A stretch of 32,000 nucleotides of DNA from Pontiella desulfatans (GCF_900890425.1 NZ_CAAHFG010000004.1:632330-664329), one strand, 5' to 3'; shown: positions 6,274-17,373, counted from the first letter of the stretch. The notes: generated from the letters alone by a model not told the origin. Made by a program: numbers and translations.

Positions 6274-7635
6274 CTATCTTTCCGGCCGCGAGCGGGCGAC
6301 GAGCTTAATGAAGATCGGCGCGCCTTCGAGGCCGAACGCCTCGCGGAACTGGTTCTGCAAATATTTCAGCCAGTTGGAGCGCGAATAGGTTGGATCGTTC
6401 ACGAACACCTTGAAATAGATCGGGTTGGTGCCGGACTGCGTGGCATAGAACACCTTCAGGCGCTTGCCCTTCGCGATGGGCGGCGGATATTTCTCGACCG
6501 CCTGCTGGACGACGCGGTTCAACACGCCGGTGGTGATTTCGACGCGCGTCTGGGCGGCGACATAGTCGATCGCTTCCACGGAACGCTTGATGTTGTAGCC
6601 GTCCTTGGCCGAAACGAACAACACGGGGGCGAAGCCCATGAAGGGCAGCGCCTCGCGCAGGGCCGGCAAATATTTGGTCTGCGTAACGTCCTCATCGGCG
6701 TCTTTCGCCAGGTCCCACTTGTTGATGAGCAGGATGCACCCCTTCTGGGCTTCGATAATCTTGGCGGCCACCTTCTTGTCGCGGGTGGTCGGCCCGGTTT
6801 CGCCGTCCAGCACCATCACCACCACGTCGGCGCGTTCGATCGCCTTGTCGGTGCGCAGGTTGCTGAACCAATCCACCGCGCTTTTGCCGCGGGTGTCCTT
6901 CTGGACGCCGGCGGTGTCGATCAGCTGGTAGTGGCGGGCGGTTTCGCCTTTGCCGATGGTGAAGGGGATTTCGATGCTGTCGCGGGTGGTGCCCGGAATA
7001 TCCGAGACAATCACGCGTTCGTCCTTGAGCAGGCGGTTGATGTAGGACGATTTCCCGGCGTTCGGCCGGCCCACCACGGCCACCCGGAGCGGTTCTTCCT
7101 CCGTTGGGTTTTCCTCTTTCGGCAGCTCGGGGATCAGCGCCTCCATCAGGGTGACGATGCCGCGGTTGTGGACGGCGGAAACGGGGAAGACGGGGAAGCC
7201 GAGCTGGTCGAAGTCGTACGCGCCCTCTTCCCGGTCTTCATTGTCGGCCTTGTTGGCCGCGAGGAATACGGTGCGCCCGCTCTGATGCAGGATGCGCGCC
7301 ACCTCTTCATCCAGCGGGGCGAGCCCGGCCGAGATGTCGACCACGAAAATAATGAACGAAGCATCCGCAATGGCCACTTCCGCCTGCGTTTCGGTTCCTT
7401 CAACGATTTGGTCGGGGGAAACCTGCTTGCCGAAATGGCCCAGTCCGCCGGTATCGATCAGCTCGAACCGCTCGCCTTCCCAGTTGGCCTCGCACACAAT
7501 GCGGTCGCGCGTTACGCCTTCCTCTTCGTGCACGATCGACACGCGCCGCCCCACCAGCCGGTTGAACAGCGCCGACTTCCCTACGTTCGGGCGACCCACG
7601 ATCGCCACAACCCTTTTGCTCTTCGTCTCTTCCAT
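6274..7635 (-). CDS. der: Ribosome-biogenesis GTPase Der (EngA)
   Basis: Two tandem GTPase domains. P-loops are GRPNVGKSALFNRL and GRPNAGKSSYINRLL, G3 motifs DTGG and DTAG, G4 motifs NKAD and NKWD, with a KH-like C-terminus. The ORF-track start at 7725 adds a 30-aa non-homologous leader. I prefer ATG 7635..7633 (MEETKSKRVVAIVGRPNVGKS). Confidence 0.9.
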   Translation of the reverse strand: MEETKSKRVVAIVGRPNVGKSALFNRLVGRRVSIVHEEEGVTRDRIVCEANWEGERFELIDTGGLGHFGKQVSPDQIVEGTETQAEVAIADASFIIFVVDISAGLAPLDEEVARILHQSGRTVFLAANKADNEDREEGAYDFDQLGFPVFPVSAVHNRGIVTLMEALIPELPKEENPTEEEPLRVAVVGRPNAGKSSYINRLLKDERVIVSDIPGTTRDSIEIPFTIGKGETARHYQLIDTAGVQKDTRGKSAVDWFSNLRTDKAIERADVVVMVLDGETGPTTRDKKVAAKIIEAQKGCILLINKWDLAKDADEDVTQTKYLPALREALPFMGFAPVLFVSAKDGYNIKRSVEAIDYVAAQTRVEITTGVLNRVVQQAVEKYPPPIAKGKRLKVFYATQSGTNPIYFKVFVNDPTYSRSNWLKYLQNQFREAFGLEGAPIFIKLVARSRPER

Positions 7636-7839
7636 AGTGCGGAGGGTGATACACGAATCCCCCAACCGGCACAACGGCAAAGGGTGGAAAGATTGACGGC
7701 AACCGCCGCCTCCCTGGCCGATCAACTATTTGGTATTGCGGCTCGACGGAAGTCTTTAATGTCAATATGATCTTTGGCAGATACTTAATCAGGCCCTGCT
7801 TTTGGGGATGCCGGGCCAACGGAAACCCAGGGGTGGAAC

Positions 7840-8091
7840 GTGGTTGACGAAGCTTTGATCGAACACCTGGCGGAAGCGGTGCATGTCCGCTGGATGGAAG
7901 GGCGTCTGGCCGAGGGCTGGACGCATGGGCCGGTGCGCGATGAAGCCGCCAAACAGCATCCGTGCCTCGTTCCCTACAACGACTTGCCCGAAAGCGAACG
8001 GGAATACGACCGCGCCACCGTCCGCGCCACGCTGGATGGGCTGAAGAATCTGGGGTATCGAATCCAGGGGGCAGGGGATGGAAAAGAATAG
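7840..8091 (+). CDS. Stand-alone RyR (ryanodine-receptor repeat) domain protein
   Basis: 83-aa ORF with a GTG start preceded by AGGGGTGGA. The text LAEAVHVRWMEGRLAEGWTHGPVRDEAAKQHPCLVPYNDLPESEREYDRATVRATLDGLKNLGYRI matches the bacterial RyR-domain pattern (H.rW...GW..G......HP.LVPY..L.e.ek.yDR). It is clearly paralogous to the C-terminus of the 14091..15965 product. It overlaps the next ORF start by 14 nt. Confidence 0.75.
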   Translation: MVDEALIEHLAEAVHVRWMEGRLAEGWTHGPVRDEAAKQHPCLVPYNDLPESEREYDRATVRATLDGLKNLGYRIQGAGDGKE

Positions 8092-11000
8092 ACGACCGGT
8101 TTTTAGGATATTCGTGAGTTCGCCCTCCGACGTAGTCGAGGAGCGGCGGGTGGTCGATACCGTGGTTGCCGAGCTGTGCGAACGGTATGCTTCTTGGGTG
8201 CATATCGAACGGGTGCTCTGGGAAAAGGAACTACTGTGCGCCAATCGGGGTGGTTTTCAGGATCAGATTGTTCCCATTGAGCAAACACACCTCGTGGTTT
8301 CCATCCTTTGGTCGAAGATTGGTTATCCGCTGGGAGAAGGAAAGACGGAGGACATTAAACCGGTGTTTCATCCGCCCACCTGGCAAGGGCGGAATCCGAC
8401 TGGAACCGAGCTGGAGATCGTAAGGGCGTTGCAGGCTTATGACGATACCCCCTCCTCCGAGCGCTTCCCCGACCTGCTCGTCTACCGCAAAACCGGGCGC
8501 GAACCTTTGGTTCCCATTGAGGAGGCGGAGGATGCCAGCCGGCAGCTCCGCGAAACGCGCACCTTTTTCGACTGGCTAACCAAAAACGAAAGCGATGGCA
8601 GCTTCTCTGCCGCCTTTCACCAATTCGAGTCGCTCAACCAGTTCGAGGAACTGCTCAAGGAGCACCTGCCGCGGTGGATCGAGGATCGGCTCGGGGTCGG
8701 GCGCGAACAGAGCAAGCTGCACCTCACCTGGCCGCATGGTTCGCCCTTCCGCGCGCTCGAACCGTTCGACGTCCACCACCATCCCGTCTTCTTCGGGCGT
8801 CAAAAGGAAACATTCGGCATCTTGGAACGCTTCCGGATGCTGGACGAACAGGGCATGGCGTTTCTGATGGTACTGGGCATGAGCGGTAGCGGAAAGTCCT
8901 CGCTCATCCGGGCGGGGGTTATAGCACGTCTCGATGCCCGTCGGGATGAGCGCTGGTGCTATGCCATCATGAATCCCGGCTTGGAAGCGAATCTGGCCGG
9001 GGCATTGATTGAGGCGTTGCACAATGAAACCGCCTTGCCGGAATTGAGTGGTAATGAAACCCTTGCCAACATCGCCAAGGATAGTCCGCAAAGTCTCGGC
9101 CTGATGGTCGAGGATTGCTTGGAAGCGAAAGAGGCGAATCTATTCCTCTTCATTGACCAGTTCGAGGAATTGTTCACGGGAACCAGGAATGCCGCAGAAC
9201 GCAAGGCGTTTGCCCGAATCCTCTTGGAACTCGCACGCAGTAAGCGGGTTTGGGTGTGCGCCACCATGCGTAGCGATTTCTACCATCGACTCGAAGCGTT
9301 GCCCGACCTGCTCGATGCCTCGGGTAGCGATGGCCTTTTCCATCTGCAGTCTCCCTCGCTCTCCGCGATCGACCTGATCGTCCGCCGTCCCGCCCTGGCC
9401 GCCGGGCTCCGCTATGAAGAGATTGACGGCGTCGGGCTCGACCAAGCCATGATCGACGACGCCAACGGACTGGGCGACTGCCTCCCGTTACTGGAATTTA
9501 CCCTGCATCGCCTTTATGAAGTGGGTTACGAGGATGGAATACTCGCATACGACGAATACGAATCCATCGGCAAGATCGGCGGCGCGGTTGACCAGCACGC
9601 CCGATCCGTCGTCGCCTCGATGGACAAGGAGGAGCAAAGGGCGCTGCCGCGAATTTTCGATGAGCTGGTTGGGCTGGACAGCGACGGCAAGGCTGTCCGC
9701 CAATATCCCCGGCGCAAATTTTTCGGGCAGGATACTCCTGCCGACCGCATGATCAAGCGACTGGTTAAAGAACGATTGCTGATTGCCGGGGAGGACGCCG
9801 AACACGAGCCCACGGTCGCCCTTGCCCATGATCTGTTGCTGGTGCACTGGTCGGAGGTGGGGCTTCACATCGAACAGAACCGGGAACGCATGCAGCAGCG
9901 CCAATGGCTCCGCGAATCCGCCCGGCAGTGGGATGCCGAACACCGCAACCGCGCCCTGCTGCTCGAAACCGACCGGCTGGTCGATCGCGCGGAAATCCAA
10001 TGGGTGTATGCCGGTGGTGCATTAGGCGACCTTGAGCGCGCATTCGTCGAGGCATCGGTCAAGCGGCGGGGCCGCAAGAGTGTGCTTGGCTGGGTCGCTA
10101 TCGGTACGATGGATATTATTTTGCTGGTATGTATGGGAATTCTTGTTGCAGGGATCGTTTTTCCATCGTTCCGCGATGTAGTGGTGGAAAACGATTCGAT
10201 GGAGATATGGGTGGATTTCTATGCAACCCCCTTGGCCATTCTTCTGGCCTGGATGCCTGCACTCCTGTTCATGGGTTGGCTAACGTGGCGCAAGGTCATG
10301 CCCGTACCTTCGGTCAAATGTGTAACGACAGACCTGAGGGTTGCATTGGTTGGACTTGGCTTGGATCTGGCGGGATATGCCACATGTTTTACCGATGGAA
10401 CGGATTTGTCCGATAGCCTGGCGTTCGGGATTCCCGTCACCCTGCTGTGGGGGCTCTGGATTGGAAATAGCCTTCGAACCAAGCGGCAGATTGCCGGATG
10501 GAGCAGGAAGCGTAATCCAATCCGGCGCCTGAACGTGTTGCGCGTATATTTCAAGCCGTTGTTACGGGGGATGGTCTATGCCGCTGCAACGGTGTTTATT
10601 ATTGCCATCATTGCCGTCGCCATGGAGGAGACCTCCACCGAGCAGGCGCAGTGGAATCTCGACAAGGTGATGGCCGAATCCTGGAATTACAATGGCGGTG
10701 CCATGCTCTCGCTCGTCGAGGACGGGGCGGGGGTTGACACCCGCAATGCGTACGGGAGCTCACCACTGCATTTGGCCGCCTTATACAACGACACGGCCAC
10801 GGCGCAATCGTTGCTGGATTTGCATGGGGCGGACATTGATGCCGTCGACAAAGCAGGCAACACTCCGCTGTTTCTTGCTCTCCAAGGAAGTTCGACCGCA
10901 CACACGAACGATGTGGTTTGGGCGTTGCTTTCCCACGGGGCGGATTTGGAGCATCGGAACTATATCGGGGGAACCCCGCTGGGATTTGCCACCGAACTTG

Positions 11001-12133
11001 GAAAGGTCGATCTGACCGAGCTCCTCCTGAGGCAGGGGGCGGAAACAGAGGTGCGCACCCATCTCGGCGCAACTCCGGCCTATTCGGCGGCCATGAACGG
11101 CCATCTACATGTGCTGTCGCTGTTGTGGGGCTGTACACAGGAAGAGGTGGCCCGATCGCTTTCAGCGTCGGCGCAAAAACAGGACGGCCTGGATTTCGAC
11201 CGGCTTTGCTGCGCGGCCGTGTGGCACCGGTGGAAAGGGGCATTGGAGGAATCGCGCAGGCTCTATGCCGCCGCGCTTGCCTTGGCGGAAACCGAAGGCA
11301 ACGGCCTTGAGGCGTTCGTGCTATCGGAATACGCACAAACCTATTTTGTGGTTGATCCCTCTGCGGCTGCCGGCATCGACCTTGTTGAGCGGGCATGCGA
11401 AGAGGAATCCTCCGGTTTGATGAGGGAGAACCTCGTGGGCAACCTGCTTTGGCACTATGTTCAGGGCGGGCGTTTTGACGATGCGAACAAGCGGGCGCAG
11501 GAAATGATGCCGACCCTGGACGAGTCGGATCCGTCTCCCTTGTGGATGAATTGTGCGCACGCCCTCTTGTTTACCGGCGACAAGGAGGGGGCACGCGAAA
11601 TCTATGCCCGGCATTGGAACGAGACGTTTGTCGATGGCCGGAACTGGGGAAATGAAGCCGTTTCCGACTGGTCGCAGTTGGAATGGCTGGAGGTGGACAC
11701 CGATATCCTTCACTCGGCCAAAACCGAGTGGGAGGTGCATACTCCCGACCTCTCCTTCATGAGAAAACCGGAAGGGTGCGACACCGGAGAGCTGAAAACC
11801 TTGCGGGATCGCATGGTCGGAAGGTGGCGATGTGAAGAGCTGTTCGAAGGCCGGGTTTTCATTCTTGAGTGGACGATTCTTCCCGATGGCCGATGCAGCT
11901 ACAACTTTTTCCGTGCCGCCGATAGATCACTTCACCAAACCTCCTATTCCACTTGGAAGATAGGCATCCACGACGGCATGAATATTTGGGGCGAACAAGG
12001 CGGTATCGACGGTGCTGTCACGTTGGCAAGCATACAGTTCGGGGCGGATGGCGACGAACTTGTTCTCACCCGCGCGGAAACCACATCCCAGTGGAACAAT
12101 TTCCAGCAAAGGCTCTACAGAAGGATCAAATAA
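8078..12133 (+). CDS. DUF4062-like (TIR-fold) - nSTAND-type P-loop NTPase - 4-5 TM block - ankyrin repeats - unknown C-terminal domains
   Basis: 1351-aa ORF. The N-terminus RIFVSSPSDVVEERRVV...GTELEIVRAL...LLVYRK (~8099..8498) looks like DUF4062/TIR-fold. The text ALEPFDVHHHPVFFGRQKE plus Walker A GMSGSGKSS (8876..8902) and Walker B LFLFIDQFEELF (from 9140) fits a STAND NTPase. PLLEFTLHRLY and ALAHDLLLVHW fit its winged-helix part. Hydrophobic helices span 10082..10624. Ankyrin text (GSSPLHLAALYNDTATAQSLLDLHGADIDAVDKAGNTPLFLA, GGTPLGFATELGKVDLTELLLRQGA) spans ~10690..11130. About 330 aa of unassigned sequence follow. Confidence 0.85.
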   Translation: MEKNRRPVFRIFVSSPSDVVEERRVVDTVVAELCERYASWVHIERVLWEKELLCANRGGFQDQIVPIEQTHLVVSILWSKIGYPLGEGKTEDIKPVFHPPTWQGRNPTGTELEIVRALQAYDDTPSSERFPDLLVYRKTGREPLVPIEEAEDASRQLRETRTFFDWLTKNESDGSFSAAFHQFESLNQFEELLKEHLPRWIEDRLGVGREQSKLHLTWPHGSPFRALEPFDVHHHPVFFGRQKETFGILERFRMLDEQGMAFLMVLGMSGSGKSSLIRAGVIARLDARRDERWCYAIMNPGLEANLAGALIEALHNETALPELSGNETLANIAKDSPQSLGLMVEDCLEAKEANLFLFIDQFEELFTGTRNAAERKAFARILLELARSKRVWVCATMRSDFYHRLEALPDLLDASGSDGLFHLQSPSLSAIDLIVRRPALAAGLRYEEIDGVGLDQAMIDDANGLGDCLPLLEFTLHRLYEVGYEDGILAYDEYESIGKIGGAVDQHARSVVASMDKEEQRALPRIFDELVGLDSDGKAVRQYPRRKFFGQDTPADRMIKRLVKERLLIAGEDAEHEPTVALAHDLLLVHWSEVGLHIEQNRERMQQRQWLRESARQWDAEHRNRALLLETDRLVDRAEIQWVYAGGALGDLERAFVEASVKRRGRKSVLGWVAIGTMDIILLVCMGILVAGIVFPSFRDVVVENDSMEIWVDFYATPLAILLAWMPALLFMGWLTWRKVMPVPSVKCVTTDLRVALVGLGLDLAGYATCFTDGTDLSDSLAFGIPVTLLWGLWIGNSLRTKRQIAGWSRKRNPIRRLNVLRVYFKPLLRGMVYAAATVFIIAIIAVAMEETSTEQAQWNLDKVMAESWNYNGGAMLSLVEDGAGVDTRNAYGSSPLHLAALYNDTATAQSLLDLHGADIDAVDKAGNTPLFLALQGSSTAHTNDVVWALLSHGADLEHRNYIGGTPLGFATELGKVDLTELLLRQGAETEVRTHLGATPAYSAAMNGHLHVLSLLWGCTQEEVARSLSASAQKQDGLDFDRLCCAAVWHRWKGALEESRRLYAAALALAETEGNGLEAFVLSEYAQTYFVVDPSAAAGIDLVERACEEESSGLMRENLVGNLLWHYVQGGRFDDANKRAQEMMPTLDESDPSPLWMNCAHALLFTGDKEGAREIYARHWNETFVDGRNWGNEAVSDWSQLEWLEVDTDILHSAKTEWEVHTPDLSFMRKPEGCDTGELKTLRDRMVGRWRCEELFEGRVFILEWTILPDGRCSYNFFRAADRSLHQTSYSTWKIGIHDGMNIWGEQGGIDGAVTLASIQFGADGDELVLTRAETTSQWNNFQQRLYRRIK

Positions 12134-12234
12134 TGAAGAAAAAAAGCACATTCAGGTGGTGGTCGCAGATGGTTTACTTGGGCGAGGAGTTCTGCTCCAG
12201 GCAATTGTTCCGTTTTATCCCGGAGTTTGTTTAA
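12133..12234 (+). pseudogene. Relic copy of the 5' end of the downstream channel-like gene (33 codons)
   Basis: Its ATG overlaps the STAND stop (TAATG). It encodes MKKKSTFRWWSQMVYLG..., compared with MKKNAFGCWWSQMVYRA... at 14091. A 20-nt perfect core, tggtggtcgcagatggttta, occurs at 12157..12176 and 14115..14134. The core sits inside ~100 nt of diverged similarity with compensating indels, and the relic ends at an early TAA. Confidence 0.5.
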
Positions 12235-12285
12235 TGGCTCTGATGGGAATCATGTAGTGGAACCCATTTAGCGGAAAGATAGAAG

Positions 12286-14079
12286 ATGAGTGAATCCAAA
12301 CCGATGAGACTTTTCATTTCCTATTCATCGAAATCCGGCGAGGCCGCCCGCTCGTTCGCGGACAAGCTGCGAACCCTGGGCTACGACACCTGGCTCGCGC
12401 CGGAGGAGATCCATGGCGGGCAGGATTTTGCCGAGCAGATTATGGAAGGCTTGGATCAATGCCACGGATTCGTGCTGTTGCTGACGGCCGAGGCCAACGA
12501 GTCGCCCCATGTGAAGAGCGAGCTGAACCAGGCCTTTGGCCGCAAGATGCCGATCCTGCCCGTCCTGTTGGAAGAGTTTGAGCTATCGCGGAGCTATGTC
12601 TACTATCTTTCCCACGCCCAATGGGTGGATGCCTCCAACGGCGCGGACGGTTGCTGGGATGAGGTAACCACGGTGCTGGATGCCTGGCGCGCGGGGCGGA
12701 CGCCGACAAGAACCGTCCAGCCCCCCTTGCCCTTCAAGCGGGTTAGGGCGTGGCCGAAGGTGGCCGCAGGCGTGGCGGTGGCGGGGCTGCTGGCTCTGGG
12801 GGTCTGGAAACTCGCCCCGAACGACGCTCCGAGTCCGGAAGACGAAAACCAGGTACGGCGCGTGGCCTCGCACATGCTGTTCATGCTGGTTTGCTGGGAT
12901 CAGCAGTTCGGATCCTTCGAGCGCTATACGGAATATCTTGAAGGTAAGGTCATATCCGGCTCGGACTATCCGATGGATATGCAGATCAAGGAGCTGGAAG
13001 GTCAGGCGGCACATGTTGCGGGCGAAATGCAAAATACCGGTGCGAAAATACACCCGTTCCCGGAAGGCCTGCTCGCGTGGATTCAGGGATCGCCTTTGAA
13101 CGCGGCCGACGCCGATGCGTTCGTGCCCTTTGCTTCCACGATGACCGAGGAGTTGGTGAACAATGTCGGCTTCCTGCGGAATTGCGTCGATCCGCGGTTC
13201 GTGATGAGTCCGGCCAACAAGCGCGAGCTGCTTGTCCAATACCGGAAGTGGAACCGCGAAAGCGCCGCGATGGCGTGGTATGGCGCAGCGGAATTCCTCG
13301 CGCCGCTGAACCAGGATACGGAAGGGTTCCGGAAGGCCTTCCGTGAGCCGCTCTCCACCTGCGCCTATCTGGCCAGCCTCAACCTGCTTTGGTTGGACGA
13401 CCAGGCCGAATGCGAACGCCTGGCGAAAAGCGCCGAGGAGCGGATGAACCGCATCATGAACGAAATGGCTGCGCTGGTGGGCGAAGAGCAGGCCAACCTC
13501 AGCCGCCAGGAAGATGCGATGCTTCCGCTTCTTCAAAAGGCCGAAGAGGTGGAGCAAATGGAAAAGCAGTTGGCGGAGCTGGAGGCCATGCTTGCCGAAC
13601 AGGAACCCGCCATCCGCGCCGACTGCACGCTCCTGCCCGACGACGATCCGGGCATCATGTGGGGCAAGATTATCCGGCTGATGGCCTGCGGCATGCATGC
13701 CGATGCCTCCCTGCAAATGGATCGGTTCCTGGAATTCAACCCGGACTCCACCTCTGCCCCCCGCGTGGTCAAGGCGGTCAAGGCCTATGCAACGGAAGCC
13801 GCAAAAACCGGCATGCGGCACGGGGCCGTGGTGTGGGGCACCGAGAACGATGTTGTGCACTCCGTGCTTCGTCCGGGCGACATTGTGGTTGAGCTGAACG
13901 GTGAGCAGGTTCTTGGCGGGGCGTCTTATGTCGCAATCAAACAAAAGAGCGGTGCGGAGAACAGCGACTTTCGATACCTGCGGTTGGATTCCAACGGGCT
14001 TCTAATGGAGCATGTGGATAAAGGAAATTCCAACGAGCCCCGCATCAGCATTACGGATATCGTGGAACAGATGGATTGA
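12286..14079 (+). CDS. Membrane-anchored TIR-domain protein with large C-terminal (predicted extracytoplasmic) region and PDZ-like end
   Basis: 597-aa ORF. The TIR_2-type text is RLFISYSSKSGEAARSFADKLRTLGYDTWLAPEEIHGGQDFAEQIMEGLDQCHGFVLLLTAEANESPHVKSELNQAF (~12304..12661), including a candidate catalytic Glu in SPHVKSEL. A single TM helix WPKVAAGVAVAGLLALGVWKL (12751..12813) has basic residues before it and acidic residues after. A coiled coil (EEVEQMEKQLAELEAMLAEQE) follows. PDZ-like text LRPGDIVVELNGEQVLG lies at ~13819..14017. Confidence 0.85.
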   Translation: MSESKPMRLFISYSSKSGEAARSFADKLRTLGYDTWLAPEEIHGGQDFAEQIMEGLDQCHGFVLLLTAEANESPHVKSELNQAFGRKMPILPVLLEEFELSRSYVYYLSHAQWVDASNGADGCWDEVTTVLDAWRAGRTPTRTVQPPLPFKRVRAWPKVAAGVAVAGLLALGVWKLAPNDAPSPEDENQVRRVASHMLFMLVCWDQQFGSFERYTEYLEGKVISGSDYPMDMQIKELEGQAAHVAGEMQNTGAKIHPFPEGLLAWIQGSPLNAADADAFVPFASTMTEELVNNVGFLRNCVDPRFVMSPANKRELLVQYRKWNRESAAMAWYGAAEFLAPLNQDTEGFRKAFREPLSTCAYLASLNLLWLDDQAECERLAKSAEERMNRIMNEMAALVGEEQANLSRQEDAMLPLLQKAEEVEQMEKQLAELEAMLAEQEPAIRADCTLLPDDDPGIMWGKIIRLMACGMHADASLQMDRFLEFNPDSTSAPRVVKAVKAYATEAAKTGMRHGAVVWGTENDVVHSVLRPGDIVVELNGEQVLGGASYVAIKQKSGAENSDFRYLRLDSNGLLMEHVDKGNSNEPRISITDIVEQMD

Positions 14080-14090
14080 AAGGTGGAACA

Positions 14091-15965
14091 ATGAAAAAAA
14101 ATGCATTCGGATGTTGGTGGTCGCAGATGGTTTATCGGGCGTGGAGTTCGACGCCGCGGCAAATTATCGTTTTGATCGGGGCGTTTGCACTGATTGTGGC
14201 CTTCGGGGCCGTGTTGCTCTGCCTGCCGTACTTCGAGTTCGGCGCGAAGGATCTCGGCGACAATCCGTGGTGGGTCTCGTTCATGCATGCAACGTGCCCG
14301 GACTATCTCGGCGAAACGACCGGCTGGAGCCGGGTGCTCGACTTCTTCGTGACCTACGGCGGATGGTTCGTGCTGCAAGGGGTGTTCGTGTCGATCCTCG
14401 TCAACGCGCTCGACCGCCGGGGCCAACGCACCTTGGAGGGCGATGCCCGCTGCCGGTTCAAGGACGGGCACGGCGTGGTGCTGGGCTGGGGCGCCATGGG
14501 CGTCTCCGTGGTTGAAAAGCTCGCCAAGCCCGGCCGCAAGGTCATCATCCTCTCGCAGGAAAACGCCGAGGAGGTGCGCGAACAACTGCGCACCGAGTTC
14601 GATTGCCCCGAATGTGCGGTCGATCCGCGCAAGGTCTTCGTCTTCCGCGGCTCGCTCGATTCCAACACCGATCTCAAGGCCTTGAATGTTGCCGGGGCCG
14701 ACGAGGTGGTGGTGTTGGGCGACCGCAACGTGCGCGGCAACGATAGCCGCAACCTGCAGGCCGCCACCCGCATCGCCGAGCTGCGCGATGCGCGGAAGAT
14801 GGAAGGGAAAGTCACCATCCATATCCATATCGACGATCTGCGTTCCTACGACCTGATCCAGGACATCGACATTCCCTCGGGCAGGCAGGGGGTGGCCAAC
14901 TTCCACCCCTTCAACTTTTGCGAGGACTGGGCGCGGCGCATCTGGTGCGCCATTCCGGGTGGCTCAACGGCCCATGTGTATCCGCCCTTGGCCTATGCTC
15001 CCGAAGTTGCCCGGAAGGAATCCTCCGCCTATGTGCATCTCTTCGTGCTCGGTTTCGGCCAGATGGGCCAGGCCATCGCCGTGCAGGCCGCACGGATTGC
15101 CCACTATGCCTCCGGCAGGAAAACCAAAATCACCGTCGTTGATTCCAAGCTCGAAGCCCGCGAGGTCTCCTTCCGCAGCCATTGTGCCATCGATGCCATG
15201 CCGGACATCGAATTCACCTTCCTCAAGGCCTATGCCGAATCGGCCACGGTACGCGACAAGCTGGCCGAAGCCGCCGACGATCCGAACCAGATCCTCAGCG
15301 TCGCCGTCTGCTTCTCCGACCCCGACGCGTCCATGAGTACCGCGCTTTCGTTGCCGGCTCCCGTCATTACCGGCGACAATCCCGTCTACGTCCGGCAGGA
15401 AACCCGCTCCGGCCTCTCCTCGCTTGCGCAGAAAATCAAGGACCAGAAGCGGTGGAAGGATATCCGTTTCTTCGGCACCCTCGACGAATGCTACGGGTTG
15501 GTTCCCGGGCAAGACAAGATTGCCGAACAGATCCACAACAGCTACATCGAGCAGGCCAAGGCCGAAGGCTGGTACGATCCCGAAAAGCCCAGCTTCCATC
15601 CCTGGAAATCGCTCGCCGAGCACTACCGCTGGTCGAACCGCTACCAGTCCGACGCCTTCCTCGAGCGCATCCGCGCCTTCGGCTACTCGCTCCAGCCGGT
15701 CTCCGCTTCCGAAACCATCTCCCGCTTCCCCCTGGAGCAACTCGAGCTCCTGGCCGAAACCGAGCACGACCGCTGGTGGGCCGAGCGCCTTCTCGCCGGC
15801 TGGACTCCCGGCGACCGCAACGACGACCTCCGCCAGCACCCCAACCTCGTCCCCTACGAAGGGCTCGACGAACCCACCAAGGAATACGACCGCGACGCCA
15901 TCCGCAACATGCCCTCCCTCATCCAGGACAACTTCGGGATGGGGTTGGTTCGCGGAGGTTCGTAA
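14091..15965 (+). CDS. 2-TM pore-like (Trk/Ktr MPM-like) module fused to two KTN/RCK-type Rossmann domains and two RyR-like domains
   Basis: The ORF track starts at TTG 14076. I prefer ATG 14091, which lies 4 nt after AGGTGG (14081..14086). M1 is IIVLIGAFALIVAFGAVLLCLP (14163..14225). An acidic loop NPWWVSFMHATCPDYLGETTGW follows, then M2 FFVTYGGWFVLQGVFVSILVNAL (14343..14411). GxGxxG motifs are VVLGWGAMG (~14475) and FVLGFGQMG...ITVVDSK (~15039). A degenerate RyR-like stretch is IAEQIHNSYIEQAKAEGW (~15516..15700). A clear RyR domain LAETEHDRWWAERLLAGWTPGDRNDDLRQHPNLVPYEGLDEPTKEYDRDAIRN lies at ~15740..15930. Confidence 0.8.
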   Translation: MKKNAFGCWWSQMVYRAWSSTPRQIIVLIGAFALIVAFGAVLLCLPYFEFGAKDLGDNPWWVSFMHATCPDYLGETTGWSRVLDFFVTYGGWFVLQGVFVSILVNALDRRGQRTLEGDARCRFKDGHGVVLGWGAMGVSVVEKLAKPGRKVIILSQENAEEVREQLRTEFDCPECAVDPRKVFVFRGSLDSNTDLKALNVAGADEVVVLGDRNVRGNDSRNLQAATRIAELRDARKMEGKVTIHIHIDDLRSYDLIQDIDIPSGRQGVANFHPFNFCEDWARRIWCAIPGGSTAHVYPPLAYAPEVARKESSAYVHLFVLGFGQMGQAIAVQAARIAHYASGRKTKITVVDSKLEAREVSFRSHCAIDAMPDIEFTFLKAYAESATVRDKLAEAADDPNQILSVAVCFSDPDASMSTALSLPAPVITGDNPVYVRQETRSGLSSLAQKIKDQKRWKDIRFFGTLDECYGLVPGQDKIAEQIHNSYIEQAKAEGWYDPEKPSFHPWKSLAEHYRWSNRYQSDAFLERIRAFGYSLQPVSASETISRFPLEQLELLAETEHDRWWAERLLAGWTPGDRNDDLRQHPNLVPYEGLDEPTKEYDRDAIRNMPSLIQDNFGMGLVRGGS

Positions 15966-16044
15966 GCGCGAACCGAGCCACGAAGCCCCTTTTAAGGGTT
16001 AAAGGTCTCCGGTGCCCCGGCTCCGGATTTTGCCGGATTGCCGC

Positions 16045-16073
16045 TTGACGGCGCGGGGCGGGAAGCGTACTTT
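16045..16073 (+). promoter_or_regulatory. Candidate sigma70-type promoter of nusA-infB
   Basis: TTGACG (16045..16050), a 17-nt spacer, then TACTTT (16068..16073), about 110 nt upstream of the nusA ATG. Motif match only. Confidence 0.35.
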
Positions 16074-16104
16074 GCTCGACTTGTTGATAGTTTGGCTCTG
16101 GATG

Positions 16105-16130
16105 AGAGTGGCCCCTGGCCGCTCTTTTGT
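16105..16130 (+). terminator. Terminator-like hairpin: nusA leader attenuator or terminator of the upstream operon
   Basis: agagtggcc-cct-ggccgctct forms a 9-bp stem with one G-T pair (16105..16125). It is followed by tttgttctct. Confidence 0.4.
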
Positions 16131-16182
16131 TCTCTATGGGCCTGTTATTTGATTTATTGAAGGTTGAGCAAGGAGGTGGCGA

Positions 16183-17373
16183 ATGAATGCTGCGGAACTG
16201 AAAGCCGTTGTGGAATACATGGAAAGCGAACGGGGCGTGGAGCGCGAAACGATTATTCGTGCCATCGAATCCGCCCTGCAGAGTGTTGCCGAGAAAAACG
16301 GGGACGAAGTGGACGAGGATTTGCGCATCGAGATCGATCGCCGCACCTTCGAGCGCAAGGCCTACCGGAAACTGTCGGATGGCTCCGAAATCGAAACCAC
16401 TCCTCCGCGCATGGGCCGCATCGCCGCGCAGACCGCCAAACAGGTGATCATGCAGAAGATCCGCAACGCCGAGAAGGAAATCATTTTCGACGAATACAAG
16501 GATCGCCTCGGCGAAATCACCACCGGAACCGTGACGCGCTTCGACCGCTCGGACGTGGTGATCGAGCTGGAGCACGGCGAAGCCATCATGCCTTCCAAGG
16601 AACGCGTTCCGACCGAGGAATATGAGATTGGCGAGCGTGTCCGGGCGCTCATCCTTAATGTCCGCGAGCGCGAGCGCGGCCCCGAGATCGTGCTTTCGCG
16701 CAACCACCCCGATTTTGTCCGCCGCCTTTTCGAACTGGAGGTCTCGGAGATTTCCGATGGCACGATGGACATCAAGGGCATTGCCCGCGAGGCCGGCTAC
16801 CGCAGCAAGGTGGCGGTGATTTCGCACGATGAGCGCGTGGATCCCGTTGGCGCCTGTGTTGGCATGCGCGGCATGCGCGTGAAGAACATTGTGCGCGAAC
16901 TCTCCGGCGAAAAGATCGATATCGTCCGCTGGAGCGACGATATCCACACCCTGATAACCAACGCCCTCGCACCGGCCCGGCTGAAGCATGTCGAAGCCGA
17001 TGCGGATACGCAGACCGTCAAGGTTACGGTCGAGCCCGACCAGCTTTCGCTGGCGATCGGCAAGCGCGGCCAGAACGCGCGGCTGACCTCCAAGCTGACC
17101 GGCTGGCGCGTGGACATCCAGAAGGATGAAGAGAGCATGGACTTCGAGGAGCGCGTTGCCGTTGCGGTAACCAAGCTCGCTGCCATCGAAGGCATCGGCG
17201 ACGAATACGCCGACAAGCTGGTATTCTCCGGCTTCCTGACGCTGGAAGGTATCCTGGCCGCCGAGATGGGCGACCTCTCTTCCATCGAAGGCATTTCCCC
17301 CGAGCAGGCCAGGGCCCTCTGGTATGCGGCAGAGGCGGAATACATTAAAGAACACGGTGAGATTACGGAATGA
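16183..17373 (+). CDS. nusA: Transcription termination/antitermination factor NusA
   Basis: 396-aa ORF with RBS AGGAGG 6 nt upstream. The N-terminal text LKAVVEYMESERGVERETIIRAIESAL, an S1 region and KH text (RSKVAVISHDERVDPVGACVGMRGMRVKNIVRELSGEKIDIVRWS, LAIGKRGQNARLTSKLTGWRVDI) are classic NusA. Confidence 0.92.
   Translation: MNAAELKAVVEYMESERGVERETIIRAIESALQSVAEKNGDEVDEDLRIEIDRRTFERKAYRKLSDGSEIETTPPRMGRIAAQTAKQVIMQKIRNAEKEIIFDEYKDRLGEITTGTVTRFDRSDVVIELEHGEAIMPSKERVPTEEYEIGERVRALILNVRERERGPEIVLSRNHPDFVRRLFELEVSEISDGTMDIKGIAREAGYRSKVAVISHDERVDPVGACVGMRGMRVKNIVRELSGEKIDIVRWSDDIHTLITNALAPARLKHVEADADTQTVKVTVEPDQLSLAIGKRGQNARLTSKLTGWRVDIQKDEESMDFEERVAVAVTKLAAIEGIGDEYADKLVFSGFLTLEGILAAEMGDLSSIEGISPEQARALWYAAEAEYIKEHGEITE

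What the first reader, a model, noticed from the sequence alone, without database searches (positions are those of the whole stretch)
12125..14190. Duplicated 5' end of the channel gene brackets the TIR gene: footprint of a cassette insertion or swap
Seen: directly after the STAND stop (TAATG at 12131..12135) a 33-codon ORF begins MKKKSTFRWWSQMVYLG. The real channel gene at 14091 begins MKKNAFGCWWSQMVYRA. The two loci share a 20-nt perfect core (12157..12176 and 14115..14134). That core lies within ~100 nt of recognisable similarity, for example gggcgaggagttc versus gggcgtggagttc and cgttttatcccgg versus cgttttgatcgggg. Small indels put the first copy out of frame and into an early TAA. Inference: the ancestral order was STAND followed by a translationally coupled channel gene. 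The TIR gene (12286..14079) then arrived between them, or replaced a paralogous channel gene, leaving a relic start. This would be direct evidence of modular shuffling inside the system, and it suggests TIR-less variants exist elsewhere.
Basis: partly seen in the sequence, partly recalled or inferred. Interest (0 to 1): 0.7.

Follow-up and report, generated by a model that had tools for sequence, protein, structure and literature searches.

The report
Leftover gene start marks operon rearrangement
Right after a bacterial immune-sensor gene lies a decayed 100-base copy of the start of a membrane-protein gene found two kilobases downstream. It is a real but ordinary gene remnant that records how a TIR gene came to sit between the two.

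Summary
Window 12129-12229 and 14087-14187 are collinear direct repeats: 82 of 107 alignment columns match, the local score is 74 against 16.5 +/- 2.4 for shuffles, and blastn gives E 4.5e-10. They share a perfect 20-mer, and each flank is better than chance on its own. Copy A starts at the stop codon of the nSTAND1 gene (TAATG). Copy B is the true start of the TM-RCK-RyR gene. The TIR gene lies between them.

The window is Pontiella desulfatans, and the 33-codon ORF is PDESU_05749. That ORF is a singleton among 15 billion proteins and has no credible match among 1.84 billion representatives. Its transmembrane-helix residues are replaced by R, P and E.

Full-length STAND homologues elsewhere have the membrane gene directly downstream with no TIR gene (L010, L012), or with a PIN gene in that slot (L025). 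Other loci have a TIR gene 6 nt upstream of the membrane gene (L027, L029). The best reading is a remnant left when a STAND-to-channel unit was joined to a TIR-to-channel unit.

The TIR protein is a recurrent partner of this gene family, not a stray gene. Direction and mechanism stay inferred. Interest is modest.

The parts
7840..8091 (+). Small stand-alone RyR-domain protein (83 aa, PDESU_05747), first gene of the operon. It overlaps the STAND start by 14 nt.
   Evidence: Pfam RyR E 4.4e-22. It is 53-54% identical to the small RyR genes that follow the channel in L010 and L012. Named.
8078..12133 (+). nSTAND1 NTPase (1351 aa, PDESU_05748). Domains: flavodoxin-like N-domain, NTPase, transmembrane region, ankyrin repeats, conserved C-terminal domain ending QRLYRRIK*.
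   Evidence: Pfam nSTAND1 E 3.5e-86 and Ank. The C-terminus is conserved in L009 and L012, so the stop position is native. N-domain model pLDDT 85.
12129..12229 (+). Copy A of the duplicated segment: a decayed 5' end of the TM-RCK-RyR gene.
12133..12234 (+). 33-codon ORF (PDESU_05749). Its start overlaps the STAND stop (TAATG). It is collinear in frame with the first 33 codons of the channel gene.
   Evidence: It is a singleton cluster with only the submitter's accession listed, where its neighbours also list a WP_ accession. Among 1.84 billion representatives it matches only itself and one spurious repetitive protein.
12157..12176 (+). Perfect 20-nt core, copy A. It begins at codon 9, position 1.
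   Evidence: Codon phase read from the sequence.
12230..12285 (+). Spacer between the relic and the TIR gene, with no similarity to the channel gene. The right-hand breakpoint lies at about 12229/12230.
   Evidence: score 12 against a shuffle mean of 10.8.
12286..14079 (+). TIR-X protein (597 aa, PDESU_05750). Domains: TIR_2, one transmembrane helix, coiled-coil region, PDZ-like C-terminus.
   Evidence: Pfam TIR_2 E 1.2e-19. Weak PDZ_6 hit. Homologues at 22-25% identity in L019, L043 and L092. C-domain homologues in L009, L110 and L112.
14087..14187 (+). Copy B of the duplicated segment: the functional 5' end of the channel gene.
14115..14134 (+). Perfect 20-nt core, copy B. It also begins at codon 9, position 1.
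14091..15965 (+). TM-RCK(TrkA_N-like)-RyR membrane protein (624 aa, PDESU_05751), the 'channel' gene. It starts 11 nt after the TIR-X stop.
   Evidence: Pfam RyR E 6.9e-17, TrkA_N and Slo-like RCK. Homologues P0002-P0010.

Best explanation
Window 12129-12229 is a non-functional remnant of the 5' end of a TM-RCK-RyR ('channel') gene. It covers the start codon, the cytoplasmic tail and half of the first transmembrane helix. That gene once began at the stop codon of the nSTAND1 gene.

The remnant was left when a STAND-to-channel unit was joined to a TIR-X-to-channel unit. One illegitimate junction lies at about 12229/12230. Three routes would give the same footprint:
- deletion between two tandem paralogous units;
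- replacement by a donor cassette;
- single-crossover integration of a circle carrying TIR-X plus a homologous channel 5' end.

Today the remnant lies on the same strand in the gap between STAND and TIR-X, with no separate promoter-like site nearby. It may be translated by stop-start coupling, but it has no demonstrated function.

Shown: the duplication, its boundaries, the lack of homologues of the small ORF, and the gene orders in relatives. Inferred: which order is ancestral, the mechanism and the age.
For: 1. **Real collinear similarity.** Searches give the statistics.
2. **Geometry.** Copy A begins within 4 nt of the channel start codon and sits in a TAATG overlap with the STAND stop. That stop is native, because the C-terminus QRLYRRIK* is shared with L012 and L009. 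A randomly placed copy would need two coincidences to look like this.
3. **Relatives.** L010 and L012 (STAND 45% and 42% identical over full length) have STAND, then channel, then small RyR, with no TIR gene between them. In L010 no TIR domain was detected anywhere in the 24-kb locus. L025 has nSTAND1, PIN, channel and small RyR, so the slot between STAND and channel is variable. L027 and L029 have a TIR gene 6 nt upstream of the channel gene.
4. **Decay.** Residues R, P and E replace B's transmembrane residues. There is a +1/-1 indel pair around codons 16-22, where A's other frame reads WARSSAP against B's RAWSSTP.
5. **No independent homologue of the 33-aa ORF**.
6. **No RNA structure signal** (z = +0.5) and no Rfam-type element found.
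7. **Another gene-start fragment in a relative.** A 54-aa TIR N-terminal piece lies just upstream of the closest STAND homologue in L009.
Against: - No close relative exists to reconstruct the event. Channel homologues are 40% aa or less, STAND homologues 50% or less, and TIR-X homologues are only remote.
- STAND and channel are not stop-start coupled in relatives.
- About 23% divergence with 9 indel events implies either an old relic or pre-existing divergence between paralogues. An old relic is odd given deletion bias in bacteria.
- The 33 codons are still open and in register, which leaves room for some function.
- Composition gives no sign that TIR-X arrived later.
- Among 84 loci scanned, no other locus shows a 5'-end duplicate. 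The process is therefore not visibly recurrent.
Confidence: 0.62

Rival explanations
1. Dispersed or templated duplication. The ancestral order was already STAND, TIR-X, channel. About 100 nt of the channel 5' end was copied into the STAND/TIR-X spacer, for example as filler DNA during break repair or by template switching.
For: TIR-X is a recurrent partner of channel and RyR genes and matches the host in composition. There is therefore no independent sign that it arrived later. Only one short copy exists.
Against: The copy starts within 4 nt of the start codon and lands exactly in a TAATG overlap with the native STAND stop. Those are two coincidences. Two of the three full-length STAND homologues lack a TIR gene at this position.
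Confidence: 0.12
2. The 33-codon ORF is a working element, co-opted from the relic. Either it is translated by stop-start coupling to keep ribosomes on the mRNA across the 152-nt gap before TIR-X, or it is a micropeptide that mimics the channel's N-terminal tail.
For: The ORF is open and in register over 33 codons, with a TAATG overlap and a GAAGGA Shine-Dalgarno-like motif upstream. Gene callers call it in every assembly. L010 and L012 also carry a small 27-aa ORF between STAND and channel.
Against: It has no homologue anywhere. About one random sequence in five stays open for 33 codons at this composition (own estimate). It has no similarity to the L010/L012 small ORF. No WP_ (RefSeq) accession is listed for it, unlike its neighbours.
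Confidence: 0.12
3. The repeats form a recombination switch. Crossing over at the 20-nt cores deletes 1958 bp, including TIR-X, and recreates an in-frame hybrid channel gene coupled to the STAND stop. This would give TIR-less subpopulations.
For: Both cores start at codon 9, position 1. The deletion product would therefore read MKKKSTFRWWSQMVY|RAWSS... in frame.
Against: No deletion variant appears in the 15 assemblies examined. The channel's 90% cluster holds only the 624-aa and 612-aa forms. Twenty nt of identity is a poor substrate, and nothing suggests selection for it.
Confidence: 0.05
4. Chance similarity or an assembly artefact.
For: None beyond the short length.
Against: Score 74 against a shuffle maximum of 31. 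E 4.5e-10. The flanks are significant on their own. The sequence is identical in independent assemblies.
Confidence: 0.01

Closest known systems
Displaced 'orphan' fragments in Rhs and CDI polymorphic-toxin loci (C-terminal displacement; PMC2935791, found; mechanism recalled from own knowledge)
   Same: A truncated piece of a gene stays beside its replacement after a recombination that swaps modules. It keeps a stretch of homology with the functional copy.
   Different: In those loci the displaced piece is a 3' toxin tip with its immunity gene, lying downstream. Here it is a 5' start fragment lying upstream, it is only 101 nt long, and the interposed gene belongs to a different family (TIR).
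nSTAND1 conflict systems described by comparative genomics (PMC8195603)
   Same: A central nSTAND1 NTPase sits with variable effector and adaptor genes such as TIR. Displacement of modules is a described feature of this class.
   Different: That paper does not mention RyR or TrkA partners (one search found no occurrence of either term). The ankyrin/transmembrane STAND with a TM-RCK-RyR partner is not described there.
Thoeris-type TIR signalling and phage RyR-domain proteins (RyDEP; PMC13232231)
   Same: A TIR protein with the conserved glutamate (E79, invariant) is encoded beside RyR-domain proteins. RyR domains were shown to bind or cleave 2'/3' cADPR made by TIR enzymes. A TIR-to-RyR signal relay is therefore a reasonable working model.
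   Different: No ThsA-like effector is present. The RyR domains here are host-encoded, one of them fused to a membrane RCK protein. No biochemistry exists for this system, so the link is inference only.
Target-site duplications of transposable elements
   Same: Direct repeats bracket an inserted gene.
   Different: Those repeats are 2-15 bp and perfect, with element ends and a transposase. Here the repeat is 101 nt and 77% identical, with no inverted repeats or transposase.

Membership tests
Gene remnant (truncated pseudogene from a rearrangement) | Significant nucleotide similarity to a functional gene in the same genome | tested here: met
Gene remnant (truncated pseudogene from a rearrangement) | Truncated relative to the parent gene | tested here: met
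   101 of 1875 nt. No similarity beyond 12230.
Gene remnant (truncated pseudogene from a rearrangement) | Disabling changes or loss of the parent's functional features | tested here: met
   R, P and E replace transmembrane-helix residues. There is a +1/-1 indel pair and a stop at codon 34. The short ORF itself, however, stays open.
Gene remnant (truncated pseudogene from a rearrangement) | Not conserved as an independent gene | tested here: met
   Singleton cluster. It matches only itself and one spurious repetitive protein among 1.84 billion representatives. No tblastn hit in 100+ related loci apart from the channel start. Caveat: no close relatives are available.
Transposon target-site duplication | Short perfect direct repeats flanking an element with terminal inverted repeats and a transposase | tested here: not met
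   The repeat is 101 nt at 77% identity. There are no flanking inverted repeats. The only gene between the repeats is TIR-X.
Leader peptide or attenuator uORF | Conserved small ORF with alternative RNA structures controlling the downstream gene | tested here: not met
   Fold z-score +0.5. The terminator-like hit at 12207-12226 is weak and the number of such hits equals chance. No conservation.
nSTAND1 NTPase conflict system (the operon) | Central nSTAND1 P-loop NTPase domain | tested here: met
   PF20703 E 3.5e-86, covering the full profile.
nSTAND1 NTPase conflict system (the operon) | Linked effector or adaptor genes that vary between relatives | tested here: met
   TIR-X, TM-RCK-RyR, small RyR, PIN and TPR-S partners occur in different orders.
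Thoeris-like TIR signalling | TIR domain with the catalytic glutamate | tested here: met
   TIR_2 E 1.2e-19. E79 is invariant in the TIR-X alignment. Its identification as the catalytic residue rests on own knowledge of TIR NADases.
Thoeris-like TIR signalling | Effector activated by a TIR-made cADPR-type signal | not testable with these tools
   There is only the analogy to RyDEP RyR domains that bind cADPR. PADLOC has no model that matches the channel or the small RyR protein.

The most novel reading that the evidence does not exclude
The remnant records the step at which a two-part system became a relay. Before, a STAND sensor was directly coupled to a RyR-bearing membrane effector. After, a membrane TIR enzyme makes a cADPR-type signal that is read by the effector's RyR domain and buffered by the small RyR protein. 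Host RyR domains would then be receptors for TIR signals in a widespread, undescribed family of STAND/TIR/TM-RCK-RyR immune operons.
Probability: 0.18. Interest if true: 0.65.

Novelty: new member of a known kind. Interest (0 to 1): 0.3.

Why it matters
The remnant is a small, clean example of how candidate immune operons are rebuilt. It fixes one breakpoint to within a few bases. With the relatives, it shows that the slot between the STAND sensor and the membrane effector can be empty or can hold a PIN gene or a TIR gene.

That slot is useful for anyone designing experiments on this uncharacterised STAND/TIR/RyR system. Natural TIR-less versions exist, and an in-frame TIR deletion can be made at the 20-nt cores.

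The remnant itself does not change any general view. Gene fragments left by module exchange are well known.

Tried and rejected
- **Rfam, permissive thresholds, on L012** (which holds the conserved intergenic element): no match.
- **RNA folding of 12120-12310:** no better than shuffles.
- **Promoter and terminator scan of 7500-16300:** nothing significant near the relic.
- **Metagenome scan with the STAND C-terminal domain:** no relative found.
- **Search for 5'-end duplicates of the channel gene in 84 loci:** only the window has one.
- **Search for other fragments of system genes in the window:** none.
- **PADLOC:** no system-level match, only domain hits for STAND and TIR.
- **Composition and codon usage:** no sign that TIR-X is foreign.
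- **Length of the perfect core:** not unusual (p = 0.07), so no special crossover or constraint argument is built on it.
- **Fold search for the STAND N-domain:** only weak flavodoxin-fold hits (best E 4.5e-3, TM about 0.3). TIR and nucleoside deoxyribosyltransferase are among them, so the result is inconclusive.
- **Exhaustive search with the 33-aa peptide:** only itself and a spurious repetitive protein.
- **Literature search for a Pontiella desulfatans transcriptome:** nothing usable.
- **L004 upstream partial gene:** not related to TIR-X.
- **L009 TIR fragment:** not a copy of the nearby TIR gene.
Full report
**1. What is in the sequence**

The window is from Pontiella desulfatans (Kiritimatiellota). 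The proteins match PDESU_05747 to PDESU_05751 exactly.

Between der (minus strand) and nusA-infB lies a five-ORF, same-strand block:
- a small RyR-domain protein, 7840-8091;
- a 1351-aa nSTAND1 NTPase with a transmembrane region and ankyrin repeats, 8078-12133;
- a 33-codon ORF, 12133-12234;
- a 597-aa protein with a TIR_2 domain, one transmembrane helix and a long C-terminal region ('TIR-X'), 12286-14079;
- a 624-aa membrane protein with TrkA_N/RCK-like and RyR domains (the 'channel'), 14091-15965.

**2. Checking the observation**

- The local alignment joins 12129-12229 to 14087-14187 and scores 74. Dinucleotide shuffles give 16.5 +/- 2.4 with a maximum of 31. Nothing else in the window exceeds 27.
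- blastn gives E 4.5e-10.
- With the perfect 20-mer removed, the 5' flank is reached by 27 of 2000 shuffles and the 3' flank by 1 of 2000. Both flanks are collinear with the core. Beyond 12230 there is nothing.
- The alignment has 82 matches, 13 mismatches and 9 indel events in 107 columns. A run of 20 matches is not exceptional at that identity (p = 0.07).
- The 15 Logan contigs examined share the same gene order and identical products. The eight aligned to the window are 100% identical at the DNA level.

One statement needs correcting. The indels cancel, so copy A stays in register with copy B across all 33 codons: MKKKSTFRWWSQMVYLGEEFCSRQLFRFIPEFV against MKKNAFGCWWSQMVYRAWSSTPRQIIVLIGAFA (14 of 32 identical). 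The differences fall into three groups:
- Codons 4-8 can be read as whole-codon indels.
- Codons 16-22 lie between a +1 and a -1 indel. There A's other frame reads WARSSAP against B's RAWSSTP.
- Codons 25-33 carry R, P and E where B has its first transmembrane helix.

The stop therefore arose by local change, not by a frameshift.

**3. Is the small ORF a gene?**

- It forms a cluster of one among about 15 billion proteins. Only the submitter's accession is listed for it, whereas its neighbours also list a WP_ accession.
- An exhaustive HMMER search of 1.84 billion representatives returns only itself and a spurious repetitive protein.
- tblastn against all fetched loci finds only the channel start.
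- The region has no unusual RNA structure (z = +0.5) and no convincing terminator or promoter.

The caveat is that no close relative exists in which conservation could have been seen.

**4. Relatives**

*Level of similarity.*
- Apart from its own 612-aa form (P0001, 100%), the channel has homologues at 40% identity or less.
- TIR-X has none detectable by word-based search beyond its TIR domain.
- The STAND has three full-length homologues at 50, 45 and 42%.

*Contexts of the three STAND homologues.*
- L010 and L012: Zn-ribbon gene, STAND, a spacer of about 180 nt, a TM/TrkA_N channel-like gene, then a small RyR gene. There is no TIR gene between STAND and channel.
- L009: a 54-aa TIR N-terminal fragment, STAND, then a TPR-S protein. 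A channel homologue, a DUF4062-X protein, a TIR gene and an M48 peptidase lie within 9 kb upstream.
- The STAND C-terminus (QRLYRRIK*) is conserved, so the stop at 12131-12133 is native.

*Wider scan.* A scan of species-representative genomes with a channel alignment gave 80 loci. I built iterated HMMs over their ORFs.
- Of 82 loci with a long channel homologue, 26 have a TIR gene within 10 kb, 31 have a STAND NTPase, and 15 have both.
- A STAND lies directly upstream of the channel in L010, L012 and L025. In L025 a PIN gene sits between them.
- A TIR gene lies directly upstream in L027 and L029 (6-nt spacer; TIR plus WG repeats), and also in L073, L088 and L092.

*The TIR-X C-terminal domain.* It is a real family. 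It occurs in L019, L043 and L092 (22-25% identity over full length) and fused to DUF4062 in L009. In the metagenome loci long enough to show flanking genes (L106, L110, L112) it lies beside channel or small RyR genes.

The four gene types are therefore recurrent partners with a very variable order.

**5. Best explanation**

The remnant's geometry fits a gene start still in its original place. It begins at the channel start codon and overlaps the native STAND stop.

Both STAND-to-channel and TIR-to-channel pairs exist as natural units. The simplest history joins one of each, with an illegitimate junction at about 12229/12230 inside the first transmembrane helix. A deletion between tandem paralogous units, a cassette replacement, or a single-crossover integration would all give this picture. 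I cannot separate them.

Against a recent event:
- composition of all genes matches the host;
- the copies differ by about 23% with many indels.

This means either an old relic or divergence that already existed between two paralogous channel genes.

The alternative is that the start was copied into an existing STAND/TIR-X spacer. That needs two positional coincidences, and I rate it lower.

A present-day role is possible but unsupported. It could be ribosome hand-over across the 152-nt gap, or a peptide that mimics the channel's tail.

One consequence follows directly from the sequence. Both 20-nt cores start at codon 9, position 1. Recombination there would remove 1958 bp and give an in-frame hybrid channel gene coupled to the STAND stop. 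No such variant is present in the available data.

**6. How the system may work (inference)**

A 2026 preprint shows that phage RyR-domain proteins bind or cleave the 2'/3' cADPR signals made by TIR enzymes (PMC13232231).

Here a TIR protein with its invariant glutamate (E79) is encoded next to two RyR-domain proteins. A relay from STAND sensing, to TIR signal production, to a RyR-gated membrane effector is therefore a reasonable model. The small RyR protein could act as a buffer.

The STAND N-domain folds confidently (pLDDT 85). It matches known structures only weakly, as a flavodoxin-like fold. TIR and nucleoside deoxyribosyltransferase are among those weak hits. Whether TIR-less relatives make their own signal is therefore open.

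**7. Comparison with the known, and verdict**

Gene fragments left by module exchange are familiar, for example displaced Rhs tips (PMC2935791). Module displacement is also a described property of nSTAND1 systems (PMC8195603).

This is a new instance, not a new kind. It is not a transposon footprint and not an attenuator. The direction and mechanism of the event remain inferred. Interest is modest (0.3).

Noticed in passing
L010:14087-14236 and L012:4449-4598: A 150-nt intergenic element between STAND and channel is 94.7% identical between two loci whose STAND proteins are only 41% identical and whose channel proteins are only 34% identical. The upstream gene (83% nt) and the small RyR gene (77% nt) are also conserved. 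The element holds a hairpin followed by a T-run (CTACCCTCCGTGGAGGTAGTTTT) and a 27-aa ORF (MIKKCW..VNLRETE). This looks like hypervariable cassettes between conserved linkers. There is no Rfam match.
   Followed up: partly
L009:9768-9932: A 54-aa ORF just upstream of the closest STAND homologue matches only the first 47 of 122 positions of the TIR_2 profile (E 2.3e-4, below the Pfam cut-off). There is no room for the rest of the domain before the STAND start. It is probably another gene-start remnant. It is not a copy of the nearby TIR gene.
   Followed up: partly
L025:4195-4587: A PIN-domain gene (E 5.7e-13) sits between an nSTAND1 gene and the channel gene. This is the same slot that holds TIR-X in the window and nothing in L010 and L012.
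   Followed up: partly
window 7840-8091, compared with L010:16377-16649 and L012:6559-6879: The small RyR gene (53-54% identical to its counterparts) lies upstream of the STAND in the window. It lies downstream of the channel in L010, L012, L025 and L029. The gene order is rotated, as if derived from a tandem array.
   Followed up: partly
window 7652-7960 to 16553-16627 (loci L013-L017, L002): Five of the twelve ~8.6-8.9 kb Logan contigs from runs ERR48702xx (the ones fetched) start at 7652-7960. Three of those start at 7792-7801, just after the only promoter-like site (7743-7771). All five end 370-445 nt into nusA. These could be transcript assemblies or a strain-variable island. The nature of the runs could not be checked.
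   Followed up: partly
window 14115-14134 and 14127: Twelve of 15 automatic gene calls start the channel at M13 (ATG at 14127), giving 612 aa. The 20-nt core then reads as GGTGG, 6 nt, ATG, a possible internal ribosome-binding site. Homologue N-termini (FFQKV in place of WWSQM) favour the 14091 start.
   Followed up: partly
window 12286-14079; L019:14358-16301; L043:18045-19982; L092:4689-6596; L009:2901-5441: TIR-X is an unannotated family: TIR (or DUF4062 in L009), one transmembrane helix, a coiled-coil region with an invariant WGK motif, and a PDZ-like C-terminus. In the loci with enough flanking sequence it lies near TM-RCK-RyR or small RyR genes.
   Followed up: partly
window 8078-8770: The STAND N-terminal domain is shared across the nSTAND1 proteins sampled (invariant positions include F12, S14, S15, D18, W48, E49, G109, T110, E111). 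It has no Pfam or PDB sequence match and folds as a flavodoxin-like domain with pLDDT 85.
   Followed up: partly
window 16104-16126: A strong hairpin followed by a T-run lies between the channel stop and nusA. A TTGACG...TACTTT promoter-like pair lies just upstream of it. This may be the operon terminator or part of a nusA leader.
   Followed up: no
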